Part shown: in pieces, positions 1,620 through 61,083 of the stretch
How the letters are laid out: every line of letters starts with the position of its first letter
Numbering within the stretch: position 1 is the stretch's first letter
NCBI RefSeq assembly: GCF_029227855.1
Contig: NZ_CP074356.1
DNA: 64,000 nucleotides
Source of the DNA: Escherichia coli
GTDB lineage: Bacteria; Pseudomonadota; Gammaproteobacteria; Enterobacterales; Enterobacteriaceae
Reading direction: 5' to 3' (one strand)
The notes under the pieces: model-generated
The model's input: only the letters and a program-made list of their open reading frames with translations
Databases searched by the model: none
Told to the model about the DNA's origin: nothing
Made by a program: the position numbers and the translations under genes

Positions 1620-2330
1620 ATAAATAAATATCCTCCGGCATAGCCGGAGGTTTTTCAAATGCGCCTATAAGGCTCTCTTACCAGCCGCGCCCTAACAGGC
1701 GCACACGATCTGACATTTGCATCCAACTTCGTTACTTACGGCCCGTAAACGGGCTGCCCGGATAGGGAATCGATAACTGCTCTCCCATTTTATCCTCTTC
1801 AAGCTGGTGCTTTATGTAATCCTGTATCTTCGCCGTGTTCTTACCCACCGTATCGACGTAATACCCTCTGCACCAGAACTCCCTGTTCCTGTATTTGAAT
1901 TTCAAATCACCAAACTGCTCGTAAAGCATCAGACTGCTTTTCCCTTTCAGATATCCCATAAAGCCTGATACGCTCATTTTGGGCGGGATCTCCACAAGCA
2001 TATGGATATGATCTGCACAGCATTCAGCTTCCAGAATCCGTACACTTTTCCACTCACACAGCTTTCTCAAAATACAGCCTATTGCTCTACGCTTCTCTCT
2101 GTAGAACACCTGTCTTCGGTATTTTGGCGCAAATACTATGTGATATTTACAGTTCCATCGGGTGTGCGCTAAGCTCTTTTCGTTCCCCATTGGGACCCCC
2201 TTTTGATTTCTTGTTTGACACTTGCAGTTGCCAGACCGCAAGGTGTTTTAACAAATCAAAAGGGGTTTTAATAACTGGCTCAAAGCTGAAAGCTTTCCGG
2301 AACCCCCAGCCTAGCTGGGGGTTTTCTGTG
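1620..2330 (-). mobile_element. IS200 insertion sequence (IS200/IS605 family), ends approximate
   Basis: Carries a 152-aa HuH Y1 transposase gene; perfect palindrome aacccccagcctagctgggggtt at 2301-2323 plus a downstream aaaacccctttt / aaaaggggg pairing upstream of tnpA match the IS200 left-end structures; hairpin cctccggcatagccggagg at 1632-1650 near the other end. Boundaries inferred from the expected ~0.7 kb element size, not from alignment. Confidence 0.7.
1732..2190 (-). CDS. tnpA: IS200 transposase TnpA (HuH single-strand DNA transposase)
   Basis: ORF 1732..2241; start placed at the internal Met (MGNEKSLAHTRWNCKYHIVFAPKYRR..), giving 152 aa; HuH motif HIHMLVEIPP and conserved Tyr-containing C-terminal region. 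Confidence 0.85.
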   Translation of the reverse strand: MGNEKSLAHTRWNCKYHIVFAPKYRRQVFYREKRRAIGCILRKLCEWKSVRILEAECCADHIHMLVEIPPKMSVSGFMGYLKGKSSLMLYEQFGDLKFKYRNREFWCRGYYVDTVGKNTAKIQDYIKHQLEEDKMGEQLSIPYPGSPFTGRK

Positions 2331-13274: not shown

Positions 13275-13400
13275 CAACCAAACGACTCGGGGTGCCCTTC
13301 TTTGTGAAGGCTGAGAAATACCCGTATCACCTGATCTGGATAATGCCAGCGTAGGGAAGTCACGGACCACCAGGTCATTGCTTCTTCACGTTATGGCAGG
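13275..13400 (+). promoter_or_regulatory. TPP riboswitch (THI element) in the thiM leader
   Basis: Conserved thi-box core ..ggggtgcccttc..gtgaaggctgagaaatacccgtatcacctgatctggataatgccagcgtagggaagtc.. immediately upstream of the thiM start; ends approximate. Confidence 0.8.
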
Positions 13401-29557: not shown

Positions 29558-29584
29558 AAAAAATAAGCCCGTGTAAGGGAGATT
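29558..29584. other. Phage P2-type attachment core (attB) overlapping the CyaR 3' end; appears unoccupied
   Basis: Sequence aaaaaataagcccgtgtaagggagatt equals the P2 att core as recalled from memory; no ogr/P2-like genes flank it here. Confidence 0.45.
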
Positions 29585-29644
29585 ACACAGGCTAAGGAGG
29601 TGGTTCCTGGTACAGCTAGCATTTTATGGGTTATGTTTTTCAGC
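29558..29644 (-). ncRNA. cyaR: CyaR (RyeE) Hfq-dependent small RNA
   Basis: Minus strand reads GCUGAAAAACAUAACCCAUAAAAUGCUAGCUGUACCAGGAACCACCUCCUUAGCCUGUGUAAUCUCCCUUACACGGGCUUAUUUUUU, matching the CyaR sequence as recalled, including the terminal hairpin and U-tail. Confidence 0.8.
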
Positions 29645-29728
29645 GAAACAGATGATAACCTTAATAAATGCAGCTGTATGTGATCGGTTTCTAAGAATTT
29701 TCCATCCGGGAAAAATAATCGAAATTAA

Positions 29729-31291: not shown

Positions 31292-31897
31292 ATGTGGATG
31301 TTAAAGAAGGGATTCACTCTGGCTCTGTTGGTTCTGTTTTCTCTGCCCGCTACTGCCGGTCTTTCGCTGGAGGAGACTGCTCGCAAGGTGATTATCGGCT
31401 TTCAGCAAGAAGATGCTCAATTAATCAACTCATTAATTGATAAAAAAACGGGGTTGTATGTTCTTTTCCACCGTGGCGCTTCGATGGATGTCGAAAATTT
31501 TAAGTCAATTGATTTTAAAACGCCTGTTCCCGAGTATTTGCTGTGGCCTTCGGCAGGGGAGCATATTCCGCGAGATGAAGAGTTTGATAAGAAAACTATC
31601 CCGGAATTTGACTGTGAACGTGGCTGGAATAAGCACGGATATTTTATTAGCAGCAGCGATACACACCATAAAGTCAGCCGTAATTTGGTCTTCACGCAGA
31701 TGTTTGGTTCACCGCGAAACACTATTTCTGATGCGCAGATTGCCGCAGCGCGTCGAATGGAGTACGGGGCCGTGCGTGTGGTCGCTGCGCCAGAAAAGGG
31801 TAGCGACGGACTGGTATTTTATTTAAGTCAACTTTACGGTTATGACACTGACTGGTATCTGACGGTGGTGGATCAGATTGGTGATTGTGGGGCGTGA
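31292..31897 (+). CDS. Hypothetical secreted protein (signal peptide), unknown function
   Basis: 201-aa ORF; N-terminus MWMLKKGFTLALLVLFSLPATAGLS resembles a Sec signal peptide; no family motif recognised. Lies in a segment I do not recall at this position in K-12. Confidence 0.55.
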   Translation: MWMLKKGFTLALLVLFSLPATAGLSLEETARKVIIGFQQEDAQLINSLIDKKTGLYVLFHRGASMDVENFKSIDFKTPVPEYLLWPSAGEHIPRDEEFDKKTIPEFDCERGWNKHGYFISSSDTHHKVSRNLVFTQMFGSPRNTISDAQIAAARRMEYGAVRVVAAPEKGSDGLVFYLSQLYGYDTDWYLTVVDQIGDCGA

Positions 31898-31927
31898 TAA
31901 AGATTTATCCGCCCGCAAGCAGTGATG

Positions 31928-33328
31928 TTATTTGAAGGGAATGTAACCCCATAATCTGTTGTGAAGTTCCGGATTGCGGGTAAAAAGCGCCTGAAGTTGC
32001 TGACGCTGGGGAGCATTCGGTTGAATGCCTGAAAGATTGAAATTGCGTTGCCATATTGCGAGCTGTTTATCTGCAAATTCTTCAGTTAGCTTGTGTTGCG
32101 ATTGCAGAAGAAGAATTAAACCGTCCCATTTGTTCAAGTTAGGATACAACCGACAATATGCGCAAGCATGTTTAACTGACGGTGCGTTTTCCAGCAACTG
32201 ACGTATTTCCTCGAACGTGAGCGGAACTCGACACCATACACAGATGTTAACCATAAATCGAAGCCCGGAGGCGTCCGGGTTAGCCAGTGTGGTCAGAATA
32301 ATCCCTTTGACACCACCATCAGGATTGGCTTTCGCAAGAATATACATAGCGGCTAATCGCAGTGGGAATACATCCTGTAATAATCCCCATTCTGCCAGTT
32401 TTAAAATATTGGCATCATGAATGGAGTCCAGCCCGTATAAAGCTGCCCGGCGCTGTGAGGGAGTATATTCAGTCGAGGTGACAACATGACGCCAGAATTG
32501 CGCAACATCCATGACGTCATTAAGCATGTTTTTAGCGCGTAGACGGATCAACATATTGTTATCCAGCAGTAATGCGCCGTACAACTCCGGAGGAATTTCT
32601 ATAGCTCGGTCAGTAAGGCTAAACAACGTTGCTTGTCGAATACGCGGCCAGCGGTCTTTTAACAGACGAGTTAATACCGCTTCGCTTAACGGTAATTGTT
32701 GACGCAGCCAGTGGGTGACCGCCAGCATTCGTAACCCTTCGTCGGGCTGCTTGAGTATTAAAAGCAGCGAAGATTCATCATTAAAGTAGCCATATTCAAT
32801 CAGCGTTTGTAATACTGCGCGGGAGAGTTTTTTATCAGGGCAAGTAAGCCAACACGTTAATTGTGGACGGCTATTTTCTGTCAATAAAAATCTAAGTATC
32901 TCGTCTACAAATGCACGGTGATCGTAACGCTGGCATTGGAGAAGGTTACGTATCATGGGAAGATTAACGGCAAATGCCGCTGCATTCTTACCCTTCTTTA
33001 AATGACGTAACGCTATGGTTGCAGCAAGGCGAACCTCTTTTACCCAGTCATTAGCTGCAAGTAATAATTCTTCTATAGCTGCAACATCCTCTTTTTGTCC
33101 CAGACATTGCACGGCCTTTTCTCGTATATATCCATTGTGGTGATAGGTAAGCTGGCAAAGAACCAGAGTATTGTTGAGATCACAATCATGCGCTATATAA
33201 TTGCCTGGATCGGCTATCATCGCCTGGAGTTGTTGCTGGATAAGAAATAATTCACAGTCAACAGAATTATTCATTTCGACGTTAAACAAAACCCTGCGTG
33301 TAAATAATGTACGCAATCCTTTGAGCAT
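31928..33328 (-). CDS. Hypothetical HEAT/ARM-like repeat protein, unknown function
   Basis: 466-aa ORF; alpha-helical repeats resembling PBS-lyase HEAT repeats (..REKAVQCLGQKEDVAAIEELLLAANDWVKEVRLAATIALRHL..); convergent with the 201-aa gene. Confidence 0.55.
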   Translation of the reverse strand: MLKGLRTLFTRRVLFNVEMNNSVDCELFLIQQQLQAMIADPGNYIAHDCDLNNTLVLCQLTYHHNGYIREKAVQCLGQKEDVAAIEELLLAANDWVKEVRLAATIALRHLKKGKNAAAFAVNLPMIRNLLQCQRYDHRAFVDEILRFLLTENSRPQLTCWLTCPDKKLSRAVLQTLIEYGYFNDESSLLLILKQPDEGLRMLAVTHWLRQQLPLSEAVLTRLLKDRWPRIRQATLFSLTDRAIEIPPELYGALLLDNNMLIRLRAKNMLNDVMDVAQFWRHVVTSTEYTPSQRRAALYGLDSIHDANILKLAEWGLLQDVFPLRLAAMYILAKANPDGGVKGIILTTLANPDASGLRFMVNICVWCRVPLTFEEIRQLLENAPSVKHACAYCRLYPNLNKWDGLILLLQSQHKLTEEFADKQLAIWQRNFNLSGIQPNAPQRQQLQALFTRNPELHNRLWGYIPFK

Positions 33329-43698: not shown

Positions 43699-44945
43699 CA
43701 GGAGCGTGCTCCTTTTTTCGCGTATTCGCGGCTGGTGGCTTTCTCTTCCGGAGTGGTGGCGCTCTGGGCTTCCACTACTTCCACTTTCGCCCCTTCGGTC
43801 AGGCGATCAATGCCGTCTGTCACTACGCGGTCGCCCGCAGAAATACCTGCGCGGATCACCACTTTCTGACTGTCCTGAATGCCCGGCGTCACCAGATGTT
43901 TGCTGACCTTGTTTTCGCTATTCAGCACCCAGACAAAATGGCCTTCATTGCCCATTTGCAGGGCGGCGGTGGGGATCACCACGGCGTTTTGTTCGGTGTC
44001 GACTAACATACGCGCGTTAACAAACTGATTGGGAAACAGTGCATCATCCTGATTATTAAAGCGTGCTTTCACTTTAATCGTACCGGTAGTGGCATCGATT
44101 TGGTTATCGAGGCTTAACAGCGTGCCTTCACTTAATTTCTTCGAGTTGGTGCGATCCCAGGCTTCAACAACCAGCGGTTTTCCGGCTTTTTGCGCCTGTA
44201 CTACGGTAGCGATATCGCTTTCCGGCAGGGTAAAGACTAAATCGATAGGGTGCGTCTGGGTGATCACCACAATCCCGGTGGTATCACCACTGGAGATTTG
44301 GTTACCAACATCAACCTGCTTGAGACCAACGCGACCATCGACTGGTGCGGTGATGCGGCTCCAGTCGAGTTGCAGCTGCGCGCTGGCGACGCTTGCTTCA
44401 TCAGCCTTAATGGTGCCTTCGGTTTCACTGACCAGCGCCTGTTGGGCATCCAGCTCCTGACGAGATACGAGATTGGTTTTTACCAGTTGTTGATAACGCG
44501 CCAGGTCACGGCGGGCGTTGGCAAGCGTGGCTTTATCTTTTGCCAGTTGGCCCTGGGCTTGTGCTAATGCAACTTTGAACTGGCTTGGGTCAATTTCTGC
44601 CAGTAAATCGCCTGCTTTGACCTGCTGGCCTTCCTGGAAATGTAACGCTATCAGTTGGCCGTCCACGCGGCTGCGCACCGTAACGGTATTAGCGGCGGTA
44701 ATGGTGCCAAGCCCGGTGAGGTAACGCGGAACTGCCTGTTCTACGGCGGTCGCCGCCTGAACCGGGGCTAATGGGCCGGAACGCATACCACGGCGACCAC
44801 CCGCTGGCGATTGCTGCGCTTGTTTCGTCGCCCCTGGGGCTGCACTCCGGGAGTCATTGCGGCCTTGCCAGAACCAGAATGCGGCGATGGCGGCGATAAC
44901 CACCACGATTACGATTACCCAACGGGATTTATAACTGCCTTTCAT
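43698..44945 (-). CDS. mdtA: RND efflux membrane fusion protein MdtA
   Basis: ORF 43698..45092; start placed at [16 protein letters not shown] (415 aa). Confidence 0.9.
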
Positions 44946-45016: not shown

Positions 45017-45169
45017 TGGAGGAATTATGAAACACTATCGGGAATCGTCTGAATGGCGGGCACATTTGCGAGCACGCATCCAGTAATAACACATGAAACT
45101 ATTTTATCTACGCGTTAGCGATAGACTACGTGCATGGCGAAAGGAGGTAAGCCGATGATTTCAGCGGGA

Positions 45170-45310
45170 CGCTGAAACGGGAAAGCCCCTCCCGAGGAAG
45201 GGGCCATAAATAAATAAGGAAAGGGTCATGATGAAGCTACTCATCATCGTGGTGCTCTTAGTCATTAGCTGGCCAGCTTACTAAGACTACCAGGGCGGGG
45301 GAAACCCCGC
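45170..45310 (-). ncRNA. sib: Sib-family antisense sRNA (antitoxin) covering ibs copy 1; ends approximate
   Basis: Sib antitoxins are encoded fully antisense to ibs; minus-strand hairpin gcccctc/gaggggc at 45184-45204 followed by a U-rich stretch could be the 3' end. Confidence 0.5.
45228..45284 (+). CDS. ibs: Ibs-family type I toxin (18 aa, MMKLLIIVVLLVISWPAY)
   Basis: Small hydrophobic ORF preceded by aaggaaagggtc SD; matches the Ibs toxin family pattern. Below the ORF-track length cutoff. Confidence 0.75.
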   Translation: MMKLLIIVVLLVISWPAY

Positions 45311-45497
45311 TCTACCCTCACTCCTGAAAGTATGCCTTCACGATAAGATTGTCAATCTGCAGGCTTTGCAGTCTGCGATCCTGCCAGCAAATATTCTTTG
45401 CGAGACGTTACGCAATAATCACACTGGAAACTATTTTATCCGCAAGTCAGCGATAGACTGCATACAGGGCGAAAGGAGGTAAGCCGACGATTTCAGC

Positions 45498-45638
45498 GGG
45501 ACGCTGAAACGGGAAAGCCCCTCCCGAGGAAGGGGCCTTAAATAAGGAAAGGGTCATGATGAAGATACTCATCATCGTGGTGCTCTTAGTGATTAGCTAC
45601 CCAGCATACTAAGACTACCAGGGCGGGGGAAACCCCGC
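45498..45638 (-). ncRNA. sib: Sib-family antisense sRNA covering ibs copy 2; ends approximate
   Basis: Position inferred by repeat periodicity relative to copy 1. Confidence 0.45.
45556..45612 (+). CDS. ibs: Ibs-family type I toxin (18 aa, MMKILIIVVLLVISYPAY)
   Basis: Second repeat unit; same SD and ORF architecture. Confidence 0.75.
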   Translation: MMKILIIVVLLVISYPAY

Positions 45639-45826
45639 TCTACCCTCACTCCTGAAATTATGCCTTCACGATAAGATTGTCAATCTGCAGGCTTTGCAGT
45701 CTGCGATCCTGCCAGCAAATATTCTTTGCGAGTCGTTACGCAATAATCACAGAGGAAACTATTTTGTTCACGCGTTAGCGATAGACTGCATTCAGGGCGA
45801 AAGGAGGTAAGCCGACGATTTCAGCG

Positions 45827-45967
45827 GGACGCTGAAACGGGAAACCCTCTCCCGGAGAAGAGGGCTTTTAATAAGGAAAGGGTTATGATGAAGCACGTCA
45901 TCATACTGGTGATACTCTTAGTGATTAGCTTCCAGGCTTACTAAGAACACCAGGGGGAGGTGGAAAC
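45827..45967 (-). ncRNA. sib: Sib-family antisense sRNA covering ibs copy 3; ends approximate
   Basis: Position inferred by repeat periodicity. Confidence 0.45.
45885..45944 (+). CDS. ibs: Ibs-family type I toxin (19 aa, MMKHVIILVILLVISFQAY)
   Basis: Third repeat unit; variant C-terminus (FQAY). Confidence 0.7.
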   Translation: MMKHVIILVILLVISFQAY

Positions 45968-46164
45968 CTCTCCCTAACCCTCACTCCTGAAATTATGTCA
46001 CTCCGCCCTTAGTGTCAATCGACGGCTCTCCGTTCTTGCGAGGCGAATAGCAAAATTTTCTGCGCCGCCGGGCCTAATTCTGAAAGTTTCTTCGTTTGCT
46101 CTTATTTCATTATTGCAGTCGGTATGATACCGGACCTCAATAATTCTCTAAGAAAGGATTTCTT

Positions 46165-46824
46165 ATGAGCGAACAAATCACGTTTGCCACCAGCGATTTT
46201 GCCAGTAACCCGGAACCACGTTGCCCCTGCATTTTGCTGTTGGATGTTTCTGGTTCGATGAGTGGTAGACCTATTAATGAACTTAACGCCGGATTGGTTA
46301 CCTTTCGCGATGAGCTGCTTGCCGATTCGCTGGCCTTAAAAAGAGTGGAACTCGGTATTGTGACGTTCGGCCCGGTGCATGTGGAACAACCCTTTACCAG
46401 CGCCGCTAATTTTTTCCCGCCCATCCTGTTTGCCCAAGGCGATACACCAATGGGGGCCGCCATTACCAAAGCCCTGGATATGGTTGAGGAGCGCAAACGT
46501 GAGTATCGCGCCAATGGTATTTCCTATTATCGTCCGTGGATTTTCCTGATCACTGATGGCGCACCAACCGATGAGTGGCAGGCTGCCGCCAACAAAGTGT
46601 TTCAGGGGGAAGAAGATAAGAAGTTTGCCTTCTTTTCCATCGGTGTTCAGGGGGCGGATATGAAGACTTTGGCACAAATCAGCGTTCGTCAGCCTTTGCC
46701 ACTGCAGGGATTACAATTCCGTGAACTGTTTAGCTGGTTATCCAGTTCGCTGCGTTCGGTTTCCCGCTCCACGCCGGGAACGGAAGTTGTGCTGGAAGCG
46801 CCAAAAGGCTGGACGTCAGTGTGA
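46165..46824 (+). CDS. yegL: von Willebrand factor A (vWA) domain protein
   Basis: 219-aa ORF with MIDAS motif [11 protein letters not shown]. Confidence 0.8.
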
Positions 46825-60613: not shown

Positions 60614-61071
60614 AGTAAGTACAAAACCTATTCGTTGTATGACAAATGTCACAATTCGATCATGGATAAATCAGGGCAAAAATGCAATGTTACGGCACTA
60701 TTTATCTCACATTATTTGAGGATTATAACATCGCATTATCCCTGAATTAAAAGTGGTAATAATAAAATATTATTTAAGAAATATCGCATATAGATACGCC
60801 GTATTAAATATTGTCAACATAAAGAAACTCCTAAAAAATACCACACATGACACTTAATATAATTCTTAAAAATAGCCAATTGCCGATTTGTTACCTTGCC
60901 TGCAATTCCGTTAGCTGTAACACTTCCTCCTGCATTATTGTAGAGCTAATATTCAATTACCATAATGCCACCTTATATCTGGAAAATTAATATCCGGAAT
61001 AACGCTTTTTCATAAACGACTGCGTTAGAAAATCTAAGCTAAATCAGTGTATTGGTAGCTAAAAAGCCAGG

Positions 61072-61083
61072 GGCGGTAGCGTG
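61072..61083 (+). promoter_or_regulatory. ops element (RfaH recruitment site) within a JUMPstart-like leader upstream of wza
   Basis: Exact ggcggtagcgtg in the long AT-rich leader about 180 bp upstream of the wza start. Confidence 0.6.

What the first reader, a model, noticed from the sequence alone, without database searches (positions are those of the whole stretch)
45100..46060. Three tandem ibs/sib type I toxin-antitoxin units
Three ~328-bp repeat units each encode an 18-19 aa hydrophobic Ibs-type peptide with a strong SD, at 45228, 45556 and 45885. The peptides differ near the C-terminus: ..ISWPAY, ..ISYPAY and ..ISFQAY. The FQAY variant replaces the Pro of the usual xPAY end. K-12 carries two units (ibsA/sibA, ibsB/sibB) at this locus as I recall, so the third is a copy-number expansion. 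Each toxin must be matched by its own antisense Sib RNA, so repeat divergence matters for cross-talk.
Basis: partly seen in the sequence, partly recalled or inferred. Interest (0 to 1): 0.5.

Follow-up and report, generated by a model that had tools for sequence, protein, structure and literature searches.

The report
Known three-copy ibs/sib toxin-antitoxin array
The region is the well-known E. coli mdtA–yegL intergenic array of tiny Ibs membrane toxins and their antisense Sib RNAs, here in a three-copy form that is about as common among E. coli genomes as the two-copy form of K-12 and is already annotated, so it is ordinary.

Summary
There are three tandem ~328-bp units, each with an 18–19-codon Ibs ORF at the stated coordinates. 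Each unit also has a full-length match to Rfam SIB_RNA on the opposite strand, scoring 140–149 bits, the same range as the five functional K-12 copies.

The window is 100% identical to E. coli JNEC-KY178, where RefSeq already annotates all three Ibs genes.
- **FQAY peptide.** The third ORF is exactly K-12 IbsA. It is the constant, yegL-proximal unit in strains with 1, 2, 3 or 4 copies. It is not a variant or a decaying extra copy.
- **Copy number.** What varies is the number (0–3) and order of IbsB-type units. In an even 60-row sample of 5,422 E. coli records, 24 had three copies, 24 had two, 1 had one, and about 10 had four or other arrangements.
- **Publication.** Extra Ibs copies beyond K-12's five were published in 2010.

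The three Sib RNAs fold into the published architecture. Differences among B-type alleles cluster in the P5 loop (TRD1), the P6 loop and the distal J1/7 (TRD2). Sib1 and Sib2 share an identical 26-nt stretch across the TRD2 core, so cross-repression between units 1 and 2 is plausible.

Verdict: already known, low interest.

The parts
45084..45411 (+). Repeat unit 1 (IbsB-type, mdtA-proximal)
   Evidence: TRF period 328 and alignment A1. Its best matches are the first unit of the arrays in other strains.
45412..45740 (+). Repeat unit 2 (IbsB-type)
   Evidence: TRF and alignment A1. 303/332 identical to unit 1. Its best matches are the last B-type unit of other strains.
45741..46018 (+). Repeat unit 3 (IbsA-type, yegL-proximal). 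Homology to the B-type units fades after about 45997.
   Evidence: TRF end at 45997. Alignment A1 shows it nearly identical to the K-12 ibsA unit.
45228..45284 (+). ibs ORF 1, 18 aa, MMKLLIIVVLLVISWPAY (F15W relative to K-12 IbsB)
   Evidence: Translation. Annotated as Ibs family toxin WP_100249772.1 in the identical record. The same allele is the third unit of strain EC29.
45556..45612 (+). ibs ORF 2, 18 aa, MMKILIIVVLLVISYPAY
   Evidence: Translation. WP_012767742.1. The same protein occurs in 3- and 4-copy strains at other array positions.
45885..45944 (+). ibsA, 19 aa, MMKHVIILVILLVISFQAY, identical to K-12 IbsA
   Evidence: Translation. WP_010723109.1 in the window's record and in K-12. 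NC_000913.3 names it 'toxic peptide IbsA'.
45180..45319 (-). Sib RNA 1 (SibB-type), 140 nt. 5' end at 45319, 3' end at 45180. A 4-nt insertion lengthens the single-stranded J1/7.
   Evidence: Ends placed by alignment to curated K-12 sibB. Rfam hit 45213-45355, 140.2 bits. Fold MFE -59 kcal/mol, z = -4.17.
45512..45647 (-). Sib RNA 2 (SibB-type), 136 nt
   Evidence: Alignment to K-12 sibB. Rfam hit 45541-45683, 142.2 bits. Fold z = -3.66.
45839..45982 (-). Sib RNA 3 = SibA, 144 nt, 99% identical to K-12 SibA
   Evidence: Alignment. Rfam hit 45870-46018, 148.9 bits. Fold z = -5.55.
45327..45355 (-). Sib1 promoter: -35 TTGACA (45355->45350), 17-nt spacer, -10-like TACTTT (45332->45327), +1 G at 45319
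   Evidence: Read from the sequence. Identical to the K-12 sibB upstream sequence in alignment A1. The consensus scan missed it because the -10 is weak.
45655..45683 (-). Sib2 promoter: -35 TTGACA (45683->45678), -10-like TAATTT, +1 at 45647
   Evidence: Read from the sequence and alignment A1.
45990..46018 (-). Sib3 (SibA) promoter: -35 TTGACA (46018->46013), -10-like TAATTT, +1 at 45982
   Evidence: Read from the sequence. Identical to the K-12 sibA upstream sequence in A1.
45256..45278 (-). TRD1 equivalent of Sib1 (P5 loop), opposite ibs codons 10-17. The equivalents are 45584-45606 in unit 2 and 45916-45938 in unit 3.
   Evidence: SibC +46..+68 (PMC2943612) mapped through the Sib alignment. 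It is the most variable block among 18 B-type units (7/23 columns).
45205..45228 (-). TRD2 equivalent of Sib1 (P1 3' arm plus single-stranded J1/7), opposite the ibs SD and start codon. The equivalents are 45537-45556 in unit 2 and 45866-45885 in unit 3.
   Evidence: SibC +99..+115 mapped. The core is identical between Sib1 and Sib2 (26-nt run).

Best explanation
This is the mdtA-yegL intergenic ibs/sib array of E. coli, made of three complete type I toxin-antitoxin modules.

On the + strand, each unit encodes an 18-19 aa hydrophobic Ibs peptide. When over-made, Ibs inserts in the inner membrane and depolarises it. On the - strand, each unit encodes a ~140-nt Sib RNA that is transcribed from its own TTGACA promoter. 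Sib covers the whole ibs ORF and ribosome-binding site.

Sib pairs with ibs mRNA through two contact regions. One is the P5 loop (TRD1, opposite the C-terminal codons). The other is the single-stranded J1/7 (TRD2, opposite the SD and start codon). Pairing blocks translation and triggers RNase III-dependent decay, which keeps the toxin off.

The three-unit form is a common allele of a copy-number-polymorphic array. It has a fixed IbsA unit next to yegL plus 0-3 IbsB-type units. The variation most likely arose by unequal homologous recombination between the 328-bp repeats.

Shown here: the repeat, the ORFs, Sib homology and fold, intact promoter and terminator sequences, and the population frequency. 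Inferred from K-12 work: transcription, toxicity, the repression mechanism and the recombination origin.
For: - Repeat array.
- Three full-length SIB_RNA matches at 140-149 bits, equal to the K-12 copies at 134-150 bits.
- Intact ORFs at the stated coordinates.
- The window is 100% identical to NZ_AP045174.1, where PGAP annotates two 'Ibs family toxin' genes plus ibsA there.
- Unit 3's protein is the same accession as K-12 IbsA.
- Curated K-12 sibA/sibB/ibsA/ibsB lie at the same mdtA-yegL locus.
- All three Sibs fold into the same P1 / three-hairpin / single-stranded J1/7 / terminator architecture, with z-scores of -3.7 to -5.6. This matches the SibC model of PMC2943612.
- The -35 TTGACA lies 36 nt upstream of each homology-mapped +1, and the sequences are identical to K-12.
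- Copy numbers 1, 2, 3 and 4 are all seen, always with IbsA last. In the even sample, three and two copies each took 24 of 60 rows.
- Published counts give 6-7 Ibs genes in O157:H7 and Shigella against 5 in K-12, evolving by lineage-specific duplication (PMC2887945).
- The mechanism comes from PMC4147584 and PMC2943612. Toxin properties come from PMC8309996.
Against: No expression data for this strain are available here, so transcription of each sib and ibs is inferred.

The ibs promoter of A/B-type units could not be defined. The consensus scan found nothing, and only a weak TTCAGG-N17-GAYGAT candidate can be read by homology to the ibsC start site.

Unit 1 carries a 4-nt insertion in J1/7 and an F15W change whose effects are untested.

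The copy-number fractions come from an evenly spaced 60-row sample of RefSeq complete genomes. That collection is itself a biased sample of the species.
Confidence: 0.93

Rival explanations
1. One unit (most plausibly unit 1, with the 4-nt insertion and the Trp substitution) is a decaying, non-functional duplicate kept only by linkage.
For: Unit 1 has a unique ATAA insertion just upstream of the ibs SD, inside the TRD2 region. The exact haplotype of the whole locus is rare: only 25 of 5,422 records are at least 99% identical.
Against: The ORF is intact. The Sib promoter, P1 stem and terminator are intact, and the covariance score of 140 bits is in the range of functional K-12 copies. The same Trp allele (WP_100249772.1) occurs in another strain at a different array position, so it is a circulating allele and not a private lesion. 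The insertion lies in a single-stranded linker and does not change the predicted fold.
Confidence: 0.05
2. The units are not three independent cognate pairs. Units 1 and 2 form a partly redundant set in which each Sib can also silence the other unit's ibs mRNA through TRD2. The extra unit would then add toxin dose and antitoxin buffering rather than a new specificity. This refines the best explanation and does not exclude it.
For: Sib1 and Sib2 share a perfect 26-nt stretch (CTTCATCATGACCCTTTCCTTATTTA, nt 84-109) covering the P1 3' arm and the J1/7 core. In SibC, either TRD alone suffices for repression. An engineered 25-bp TRD2 helix was enough to redirect SibC to ibsD (PMC2943612). The same paper reports that ibsA is repressed by non-cognate Sibs.
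Against: TRD1 differs at 4 of 23 positions, and the P6 loop, which TRD2 needs as an auxiliary contact, differs by one base (UAGC vs UAUC). K-12 SibD and SibE share a 36-nt run that reaches into TRD2, yet the paper reports discrimination between non-cognate pairs apart from ibsA/SibA. Contiguity alone is therefore not a reliable predictor.
Confidence: 0.4
3. The third copy is an assembly artefact of a repeated region.
For: Tandem 328-bp repeats can be mis-assembled from short reads.
Against: The window is identical to a complete genome. The three units differ from each other at 9-30% of positions, so they are individually resolvable. About 40% of sampled complete genomes from unrelated sources show the same three-unit layout.
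Confidence: 0.01

Closest known systems
E. coli K-12 ibsA/sibA and ibsB/sibB (QUAD1a/1b, RyeC/RyeD) between yegL and mdtA
   Same: Same locus, flanking genes and orientation. Unit 3 encodes the identical IbsA peptide, and its Sib is 99% identical to SibA. Units 1 and 2 are 94% and 93% identical to the K-12 ibsB/sibB unit. The Sib promoters and terminators match.
   Different: There is one more IbsB-type unit than in K-12. The B-type peptides carry F15W (unit 1) and L4I plus F15Y (unit 2). Unit 1 has a 4-nt insertion in the J1/7 linker.
Three- and four-copy mdtA-yegL arrays of other E. coli (e.g. O157:H7, EC93, elppa5, EC29, UID2309220031), already annotated in RefSeq
   Same: Same architecture: B-type units followed by a constant ibsA unit. 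The unit 2 peptide (WP_012767742.1) and the unit 1 peptide (WP_100249772.1) both recur in these strains.
   Different: Only the combination and order of B-type alleles differ. The exact haplotype (at least 99% identity) is found in 25 of 5,422 records.
ibsC/sibC, the experimentally dissected member (Han et al. 2010, PMC2943612)
   Same: Same fold (P1, P2, P5, P6, J1/7, P7 terminator). Same placement of TRD1 opposite the C-terminal codons and TRD2 opposite the SD and start codon.
   Different: 53-61% nucleotide identity to the window Sibs, with different TRD sequences, at a different chromosomal locus (fau-serA).

Membership tests
Ibs/Sib type I toxin-antitoxin (Rfam RF00113 SIB_RNA; NCBI 'Ibs family toxin') | An antisense RNA homologous to Sib, scoring above the curated Rfam gathering threshold | tested here: met
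   Three full-length matches (model 1-147) at 140.2, 142.2 and 148.9 bits against a gathering score of 56. K-12 controls score 133.8-149.5 bits.
Ibs/Sib type I toxin-antitoxin (Rfam RF00113 SIB_RNA; NCBI 'Ibs family toxin') | An 18-19 aa hydrophobic ORF with an MMK/MMR start and an aromatic C-terminal Tyr, lying wholly inside and antisense to the Sib RNA | tested here: met
   ORFs. Each lies within the homology-mapped Sib span. Unit 3 equals K-12 IbsA. The identical RefSeq record names all three as Ibs family toxins. The NCBIfam HMM could not be run directly because the tool needs at least 20 aa.
Ibs/Sib type I toxin-antitoxin (Rfam RF00113 SIB_RNA; NCBI 'Ibs family toxin') | The Sib secondary structure: closing P1 stem, internal hairpins with the TRD1 loop, single-stranded J1/7 (TRD2), and a terminator hairpin | tested here: met
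   All three fold into this architecture, with z-scores of -3.7 to -5.6 against shuffles. This agrees with the description in PMC2943612.
Ibs/Sib type I toxin-antitoxin (Rfam RF00113 SIB_RNA; NCBI 'Ibs family toxin') | Each Sib has its own promoter and terminator | tested here: met
   The -35 TTGACA lies 36 nt upstream of each +1, and a GC hairpin plus UUUCC sits at each 3' end. The sequences are identical to K-12 sibA/sibB. The generic consensus scan did not call the promoters because the -10 is weak.
Ibs/Sib type I toxin-antitoxin (Rfam RF00113 SIB_RNA; NCBI 'Ibs family toxin') | Conserved chromosomal position (the mdtA-yegL intergenic region for the A/B pair) | tested here: met
   mdtA ends at 44945 (-) and yegL starts at 46165 (+). 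The K-12 layout is the same.
Ibs/Sib type I toxin-antitoxin (Rfam RF00113 SIB_RNA; NCBI 'Ibs family toxin') | The Sib RNA is actually transcribed and represses its cognate ibs | not testable with these tools
   This needs RNA-seq or Northern blots and co-expression assays. It is shown only for K-12 paralogues in the literature.
Ibs/Sib type I toxin-antitoxin (Rfam RF00113 SIB_RNA; NCBI 'Ibs family toxin') | The peptide is toxic (membrane depolarisation) when over-produced | not testable with these tools
   IbsA is labelled 'toxic peptide' in NC_000913.3, and IbsC data are reviewed in PMC8309996. The WPAY and YPAY alleles are untested.

The most novel reading that the evidence does not exclude
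Among the IbsB-type alleles that circulate in E. coli, nucleotide differences inside the Sib/ibs overlap fall almost only in three places. These are the elements that make first contact with the mRNA: the P5 loop (TRD1), the P6 loop and the distal J1/7 (TRD2). The stems and the terminator are invariant.

The most novel reading not excluded is that tandem arrays are under diversifying selection for mutually orthogonal toxin-antitoxin pairs. Under this reading, the W/Y/F variation at Ibs residue 15 is a by-product of selection on the antisense RNA and not on the peptide. Unequal crossing-over would continually reshuffle units, creating cross-talk that selection must then resolve.

This extends an idea already stated for the five K-12 paralogues (PMC2943612). 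It would not be a new kind of system.
Probability: 0.25. Interest if true: 0.3.

Novelty: already known. Interest (0 to 1): 0.08.

Why it matters
It matters little as a discovery. The locus, the family, its mechanism and its copy-number variation between strains are all published, and the genes are annotated in the identical RefSeq record.

The practical value is as a correction. K-12 is not the reference state for this array, since three copies are as common as two. The FQAY peptide is canonical IbsA. Rfam SIB_RNA coordinates are shifted about 36 nt into the promoter relative to the mapped RNA ends.

The natural allele series of B-type units could serve as a ready-made test set for how antisense specificity evolves in duplicated type I systems.

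Tried and rejected
- **Cluster look-up.** I tried to count exact peptide alleles with the listing of cluster members. For the same reason NCBIfam, PHROGs and Pfam scans of the peptides were not possible.
- **Primary paper and review.** I tried to read Fozo et al. 2008 and the Fozo 2012 review for strain-level copy numbers. Neither is held. Fozo et al. 2010 and Han et al. 2010 were used instead.
- **Promoter and terminator scan.** The generic consensus scan did not recover the sib promoters or terminators. I read them directly and by identity to K-12.
- **Which unit is 'extra'.** I considered identifying the window unit that is extra relative to K-12 and rejected the question. K-12's B unit is 94.3% identical to unit 1 and 93.3% to unit 2. 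Unit 1 matches first-position units and unit 2 matches last-position units in other strains. So K-12's single unit is the positional equivalent of both.
- **Mini-ORF.** I considered that the SD-like AGGAGG plus ATG upstream of ibs in unit 1 is a leader ORF and rejected it. The ATG is ACG in units 2 and 3 and in K-12 ibsB. By homology to the ibsC start site it lies upstream of the transcript.
- **Run-length comparison.** The alignment-column comparison of Sib1 and Sib2 at TRD2 was distorted by placement of the 4-nt indel. I redid it by exact substring matching.

Full report
**What is there.** The interval lies between mdtA (minus strand, start codon at 44945) and yegL (plus strand, from 46165). 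Tandem Repeats Finder reports a single array at 45084-45997 with period 328, 2.8 copies and 89% matches.

They encode MMKLLIIVVLLVISWPAY, MMKILIIVVLLVISYPAY and MMKHVIILVILLVISFQAY. Each is preceded by TAAGGA 7 nt upstream of the first ATG.

On the opposite strand, Rfam SIB_RNA (RF00113) matches three times over its full length at 140-149 bits, against a gathering score of 56. The five curated K-12 Sib genes score 134-150 bits in the same test.

**Exact anatomy.** The Rfam coordinates (45213-45355, 45541-45683, 45870-46018) are not the RNA ends. In K-12 the Rfam hits begin 36 nt upstream of the curated sibA and sibB 5' ends and stop before the terminator. In the window each hit begins at the first base of a TTGACA -35 hexamer.

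Aligning to the curated K-12 RNAs places the three Sibs on the minus strand:
- Sib1 at 45319->45180 (140 nt)
- Sib2 at 45647->45512 (136 nt)
- Sib3 at 45982->45839 (144 nt)

Sib3 is 99% identical to K-12 SibA. The upstream promoter sequences are identical to those of K-12 sibB and sibA.

All three RNAs fold into the same shape, with z-scores of -3.7 to -5.6 against shuffled controls. The shape has a closing P1 stem, three internal hairpins, a single-stranded linker and a terminator hairpin. This is the architecture described for SibC (PMC2943612).

I mapped SibC's two target-recognition domains (+46..+68 and +99..+115) through the alignment. TRD1 falls opposite ibs codons 10-17, and TRD2 falls opposite the SD and start codon.

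**Comparison with other genomes.** The window is 100% identical to the chromosome of E. coli JNEC-KY178 (NZ_AP045174.1). There RefSeq already annotates two 'Ibs family toxin' genes and ibsA at these coordinates.

The third peptide has the same protein accession as K-12 IbsA (WP_010723109.1). K-12 IbsB is MMKLLIIVVLLVISFPAY. So FQAY is the canonical IbsA and not a variant.

In strains with one, two, three or four units, the yegL-proximal unit is always this identical IbsA. What varies is the number of IbsB-type units (0-3) and which alleles occupy which position. The window's Trp allele is the third unit of strain EC29. The window's unit 2 allele is the first unit in strain 133 and the third in four-copy strains. 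One strain has an IS4 inserted in the array.

I took an evenly spaced 60-row sample of the 5,422 matching E. coli records:

| Layout | Rows |
|---|---|
| Three-copy | 24 |
| Two-copy (the K-12 state) | 24 |
| One-copy | 1 |
| Four-copy or interrupted | about 10 |

An independent 40-row sample gave the same picture. The three-copy state is therefore a major allele of the species and not an oddity.

The literature already reported 6-7 Ibs genes in O157:H7, Shigella and E. fergusonii against five in K-12. It also proposed that type I loci evolve by lineage-specific tandem duplication (PMC2887945).

**How it most likely works.** This follows from K-12 work and was not tested here. Each Sib is made constitutively and pairs with its ibs mRNA through TRD1 and TRD2. 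Pairing blocks ribosome binding and promotes RNase III-dependent decay (PMC4147584 and PMC2943612). Unrepressed Ibs inserts in the inner membrane and depolarises it (PMC8309996). A Salmonella IbsA was recently reported to inhibit the Fo sector of ATP synthase (bioRxiv 10.1101/2025.05.26.656083).

The array's copy-number variation is best explained by unequal homologous recombination between 328-bp repeats. Unit 1 resembles first-position units and unit 2 resembles last-position units of other strains. K-12's single B unit is about equally close to both.

**Cross-talk.** Within 18 B-type units from 8 strains, variable columns inside the Sib/ibs overlap are confined to three blocks:
- TRD1 (7 of 23 columns)
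- Four bases at ibs codons 4-5, which form the P6 loop
- The distal edge of TRD2

The terminator is invariant (0 of 25 columns), and the 5' part of Sib has 2 variable columns of 41.

Sib1 and Sib2 differ at 4 TRD1 positions and at one P6-loop base. They are identical over 26 nt covering the TRD2 core. Either TRD suffices for SibC, and a 25-bp TRD2 helix was enough to retarget it. Cross-repression between units 1 and 2 is therefore plausible, at about 0.4.

There is a caution. K-12 SibD and SibE share an even longer run reaching into TRD2, yet they are reported to discriminate.

Sib3 shares only 14-16-nt runs with the other two.

**What remains unresolved.** The ibs promoter of A/B-type units was not identified with confidence. 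No expression or toxicity data exist for the WPAY and YPAY alleles. The frequency estimates rest on samples of a biased genome collection.

**Verdict.** The implied novelty is not there. The FQAY ORF is K-12 IbsA, the three-copy array is as common as the K-12 form, and it is already annotated and published. Novelty: already known. Interest: low.

Noticed in passing
window 45213-45355, 45541-45683, 45870-46018 (minus strand): Rfam RF00113 SIB_RNA matches start at the -35 TTGACA of each sib promoter and end before the terminator. They are shifted about 36 nt from the curated or mapped Sib RNA ends, and the same shift is seen for all five K-12 copies. Coordinates taken from Rfam hits would mis-place the RNA.
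   Followed up: yes
window 45142-45175 (+): In unit 1 only, a perfect AGGAGG followed 7 nt later by ATG opens a 6-codon ORF (MISAGR*). The ATG is ACG in units 2 and 3 and in the K-12 ibsB unit, but ATG in the K-12 ibsA unit. It probably lies in the ibs promoter (a -10-like GAYGAT) rather than in a transcript. If so, the T/C polymorphism might alter ibs promoter strength.
   Followed up: partly
window 31292-33328: Two genes sit between trhP (yegQ) and yegP: a 201-aa hypothetical protein (+) and a 466-aa HEAT-repeat protein (-). The HEAT-repeat protein gives a weak PADLOC match to HEAT-ARM_XIII (E 8.7e-7), and the other gives no match. From memory these are not at this position in K-12, so this may be a small strain-variable island.
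   Followed up: partly
window 1733-2323 (minus strand): An IS200C transposase gene (1733-2191) lies directly downstream of an Rfam STnc490 match (2200-2323, 146 bits). The sRNA match therefore probably represents the IS200 5' leader and not an independent gene.
   Followed up: no
window 13278-13374 (+), 29561-29646 (-), 61045-61083 (+): Other expected RNA elements of this chromosomal region are the TPP riboswitch upstream of thiM, CyaR next to trhP/yegQ, and a JUMPstart element about 15 kb beyond yegL. The JUMPstart element is presumably ahead of a polysaccharide operon.
   Followed up: no
L012:3453-4799 (E. coli EC6868, NZ_CP095083.1): An IS4 element is inserted between the last B-type unit and the ibsA unit of a four-copy array. 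This shows that the array tolerates interruption.
   Followed up: no
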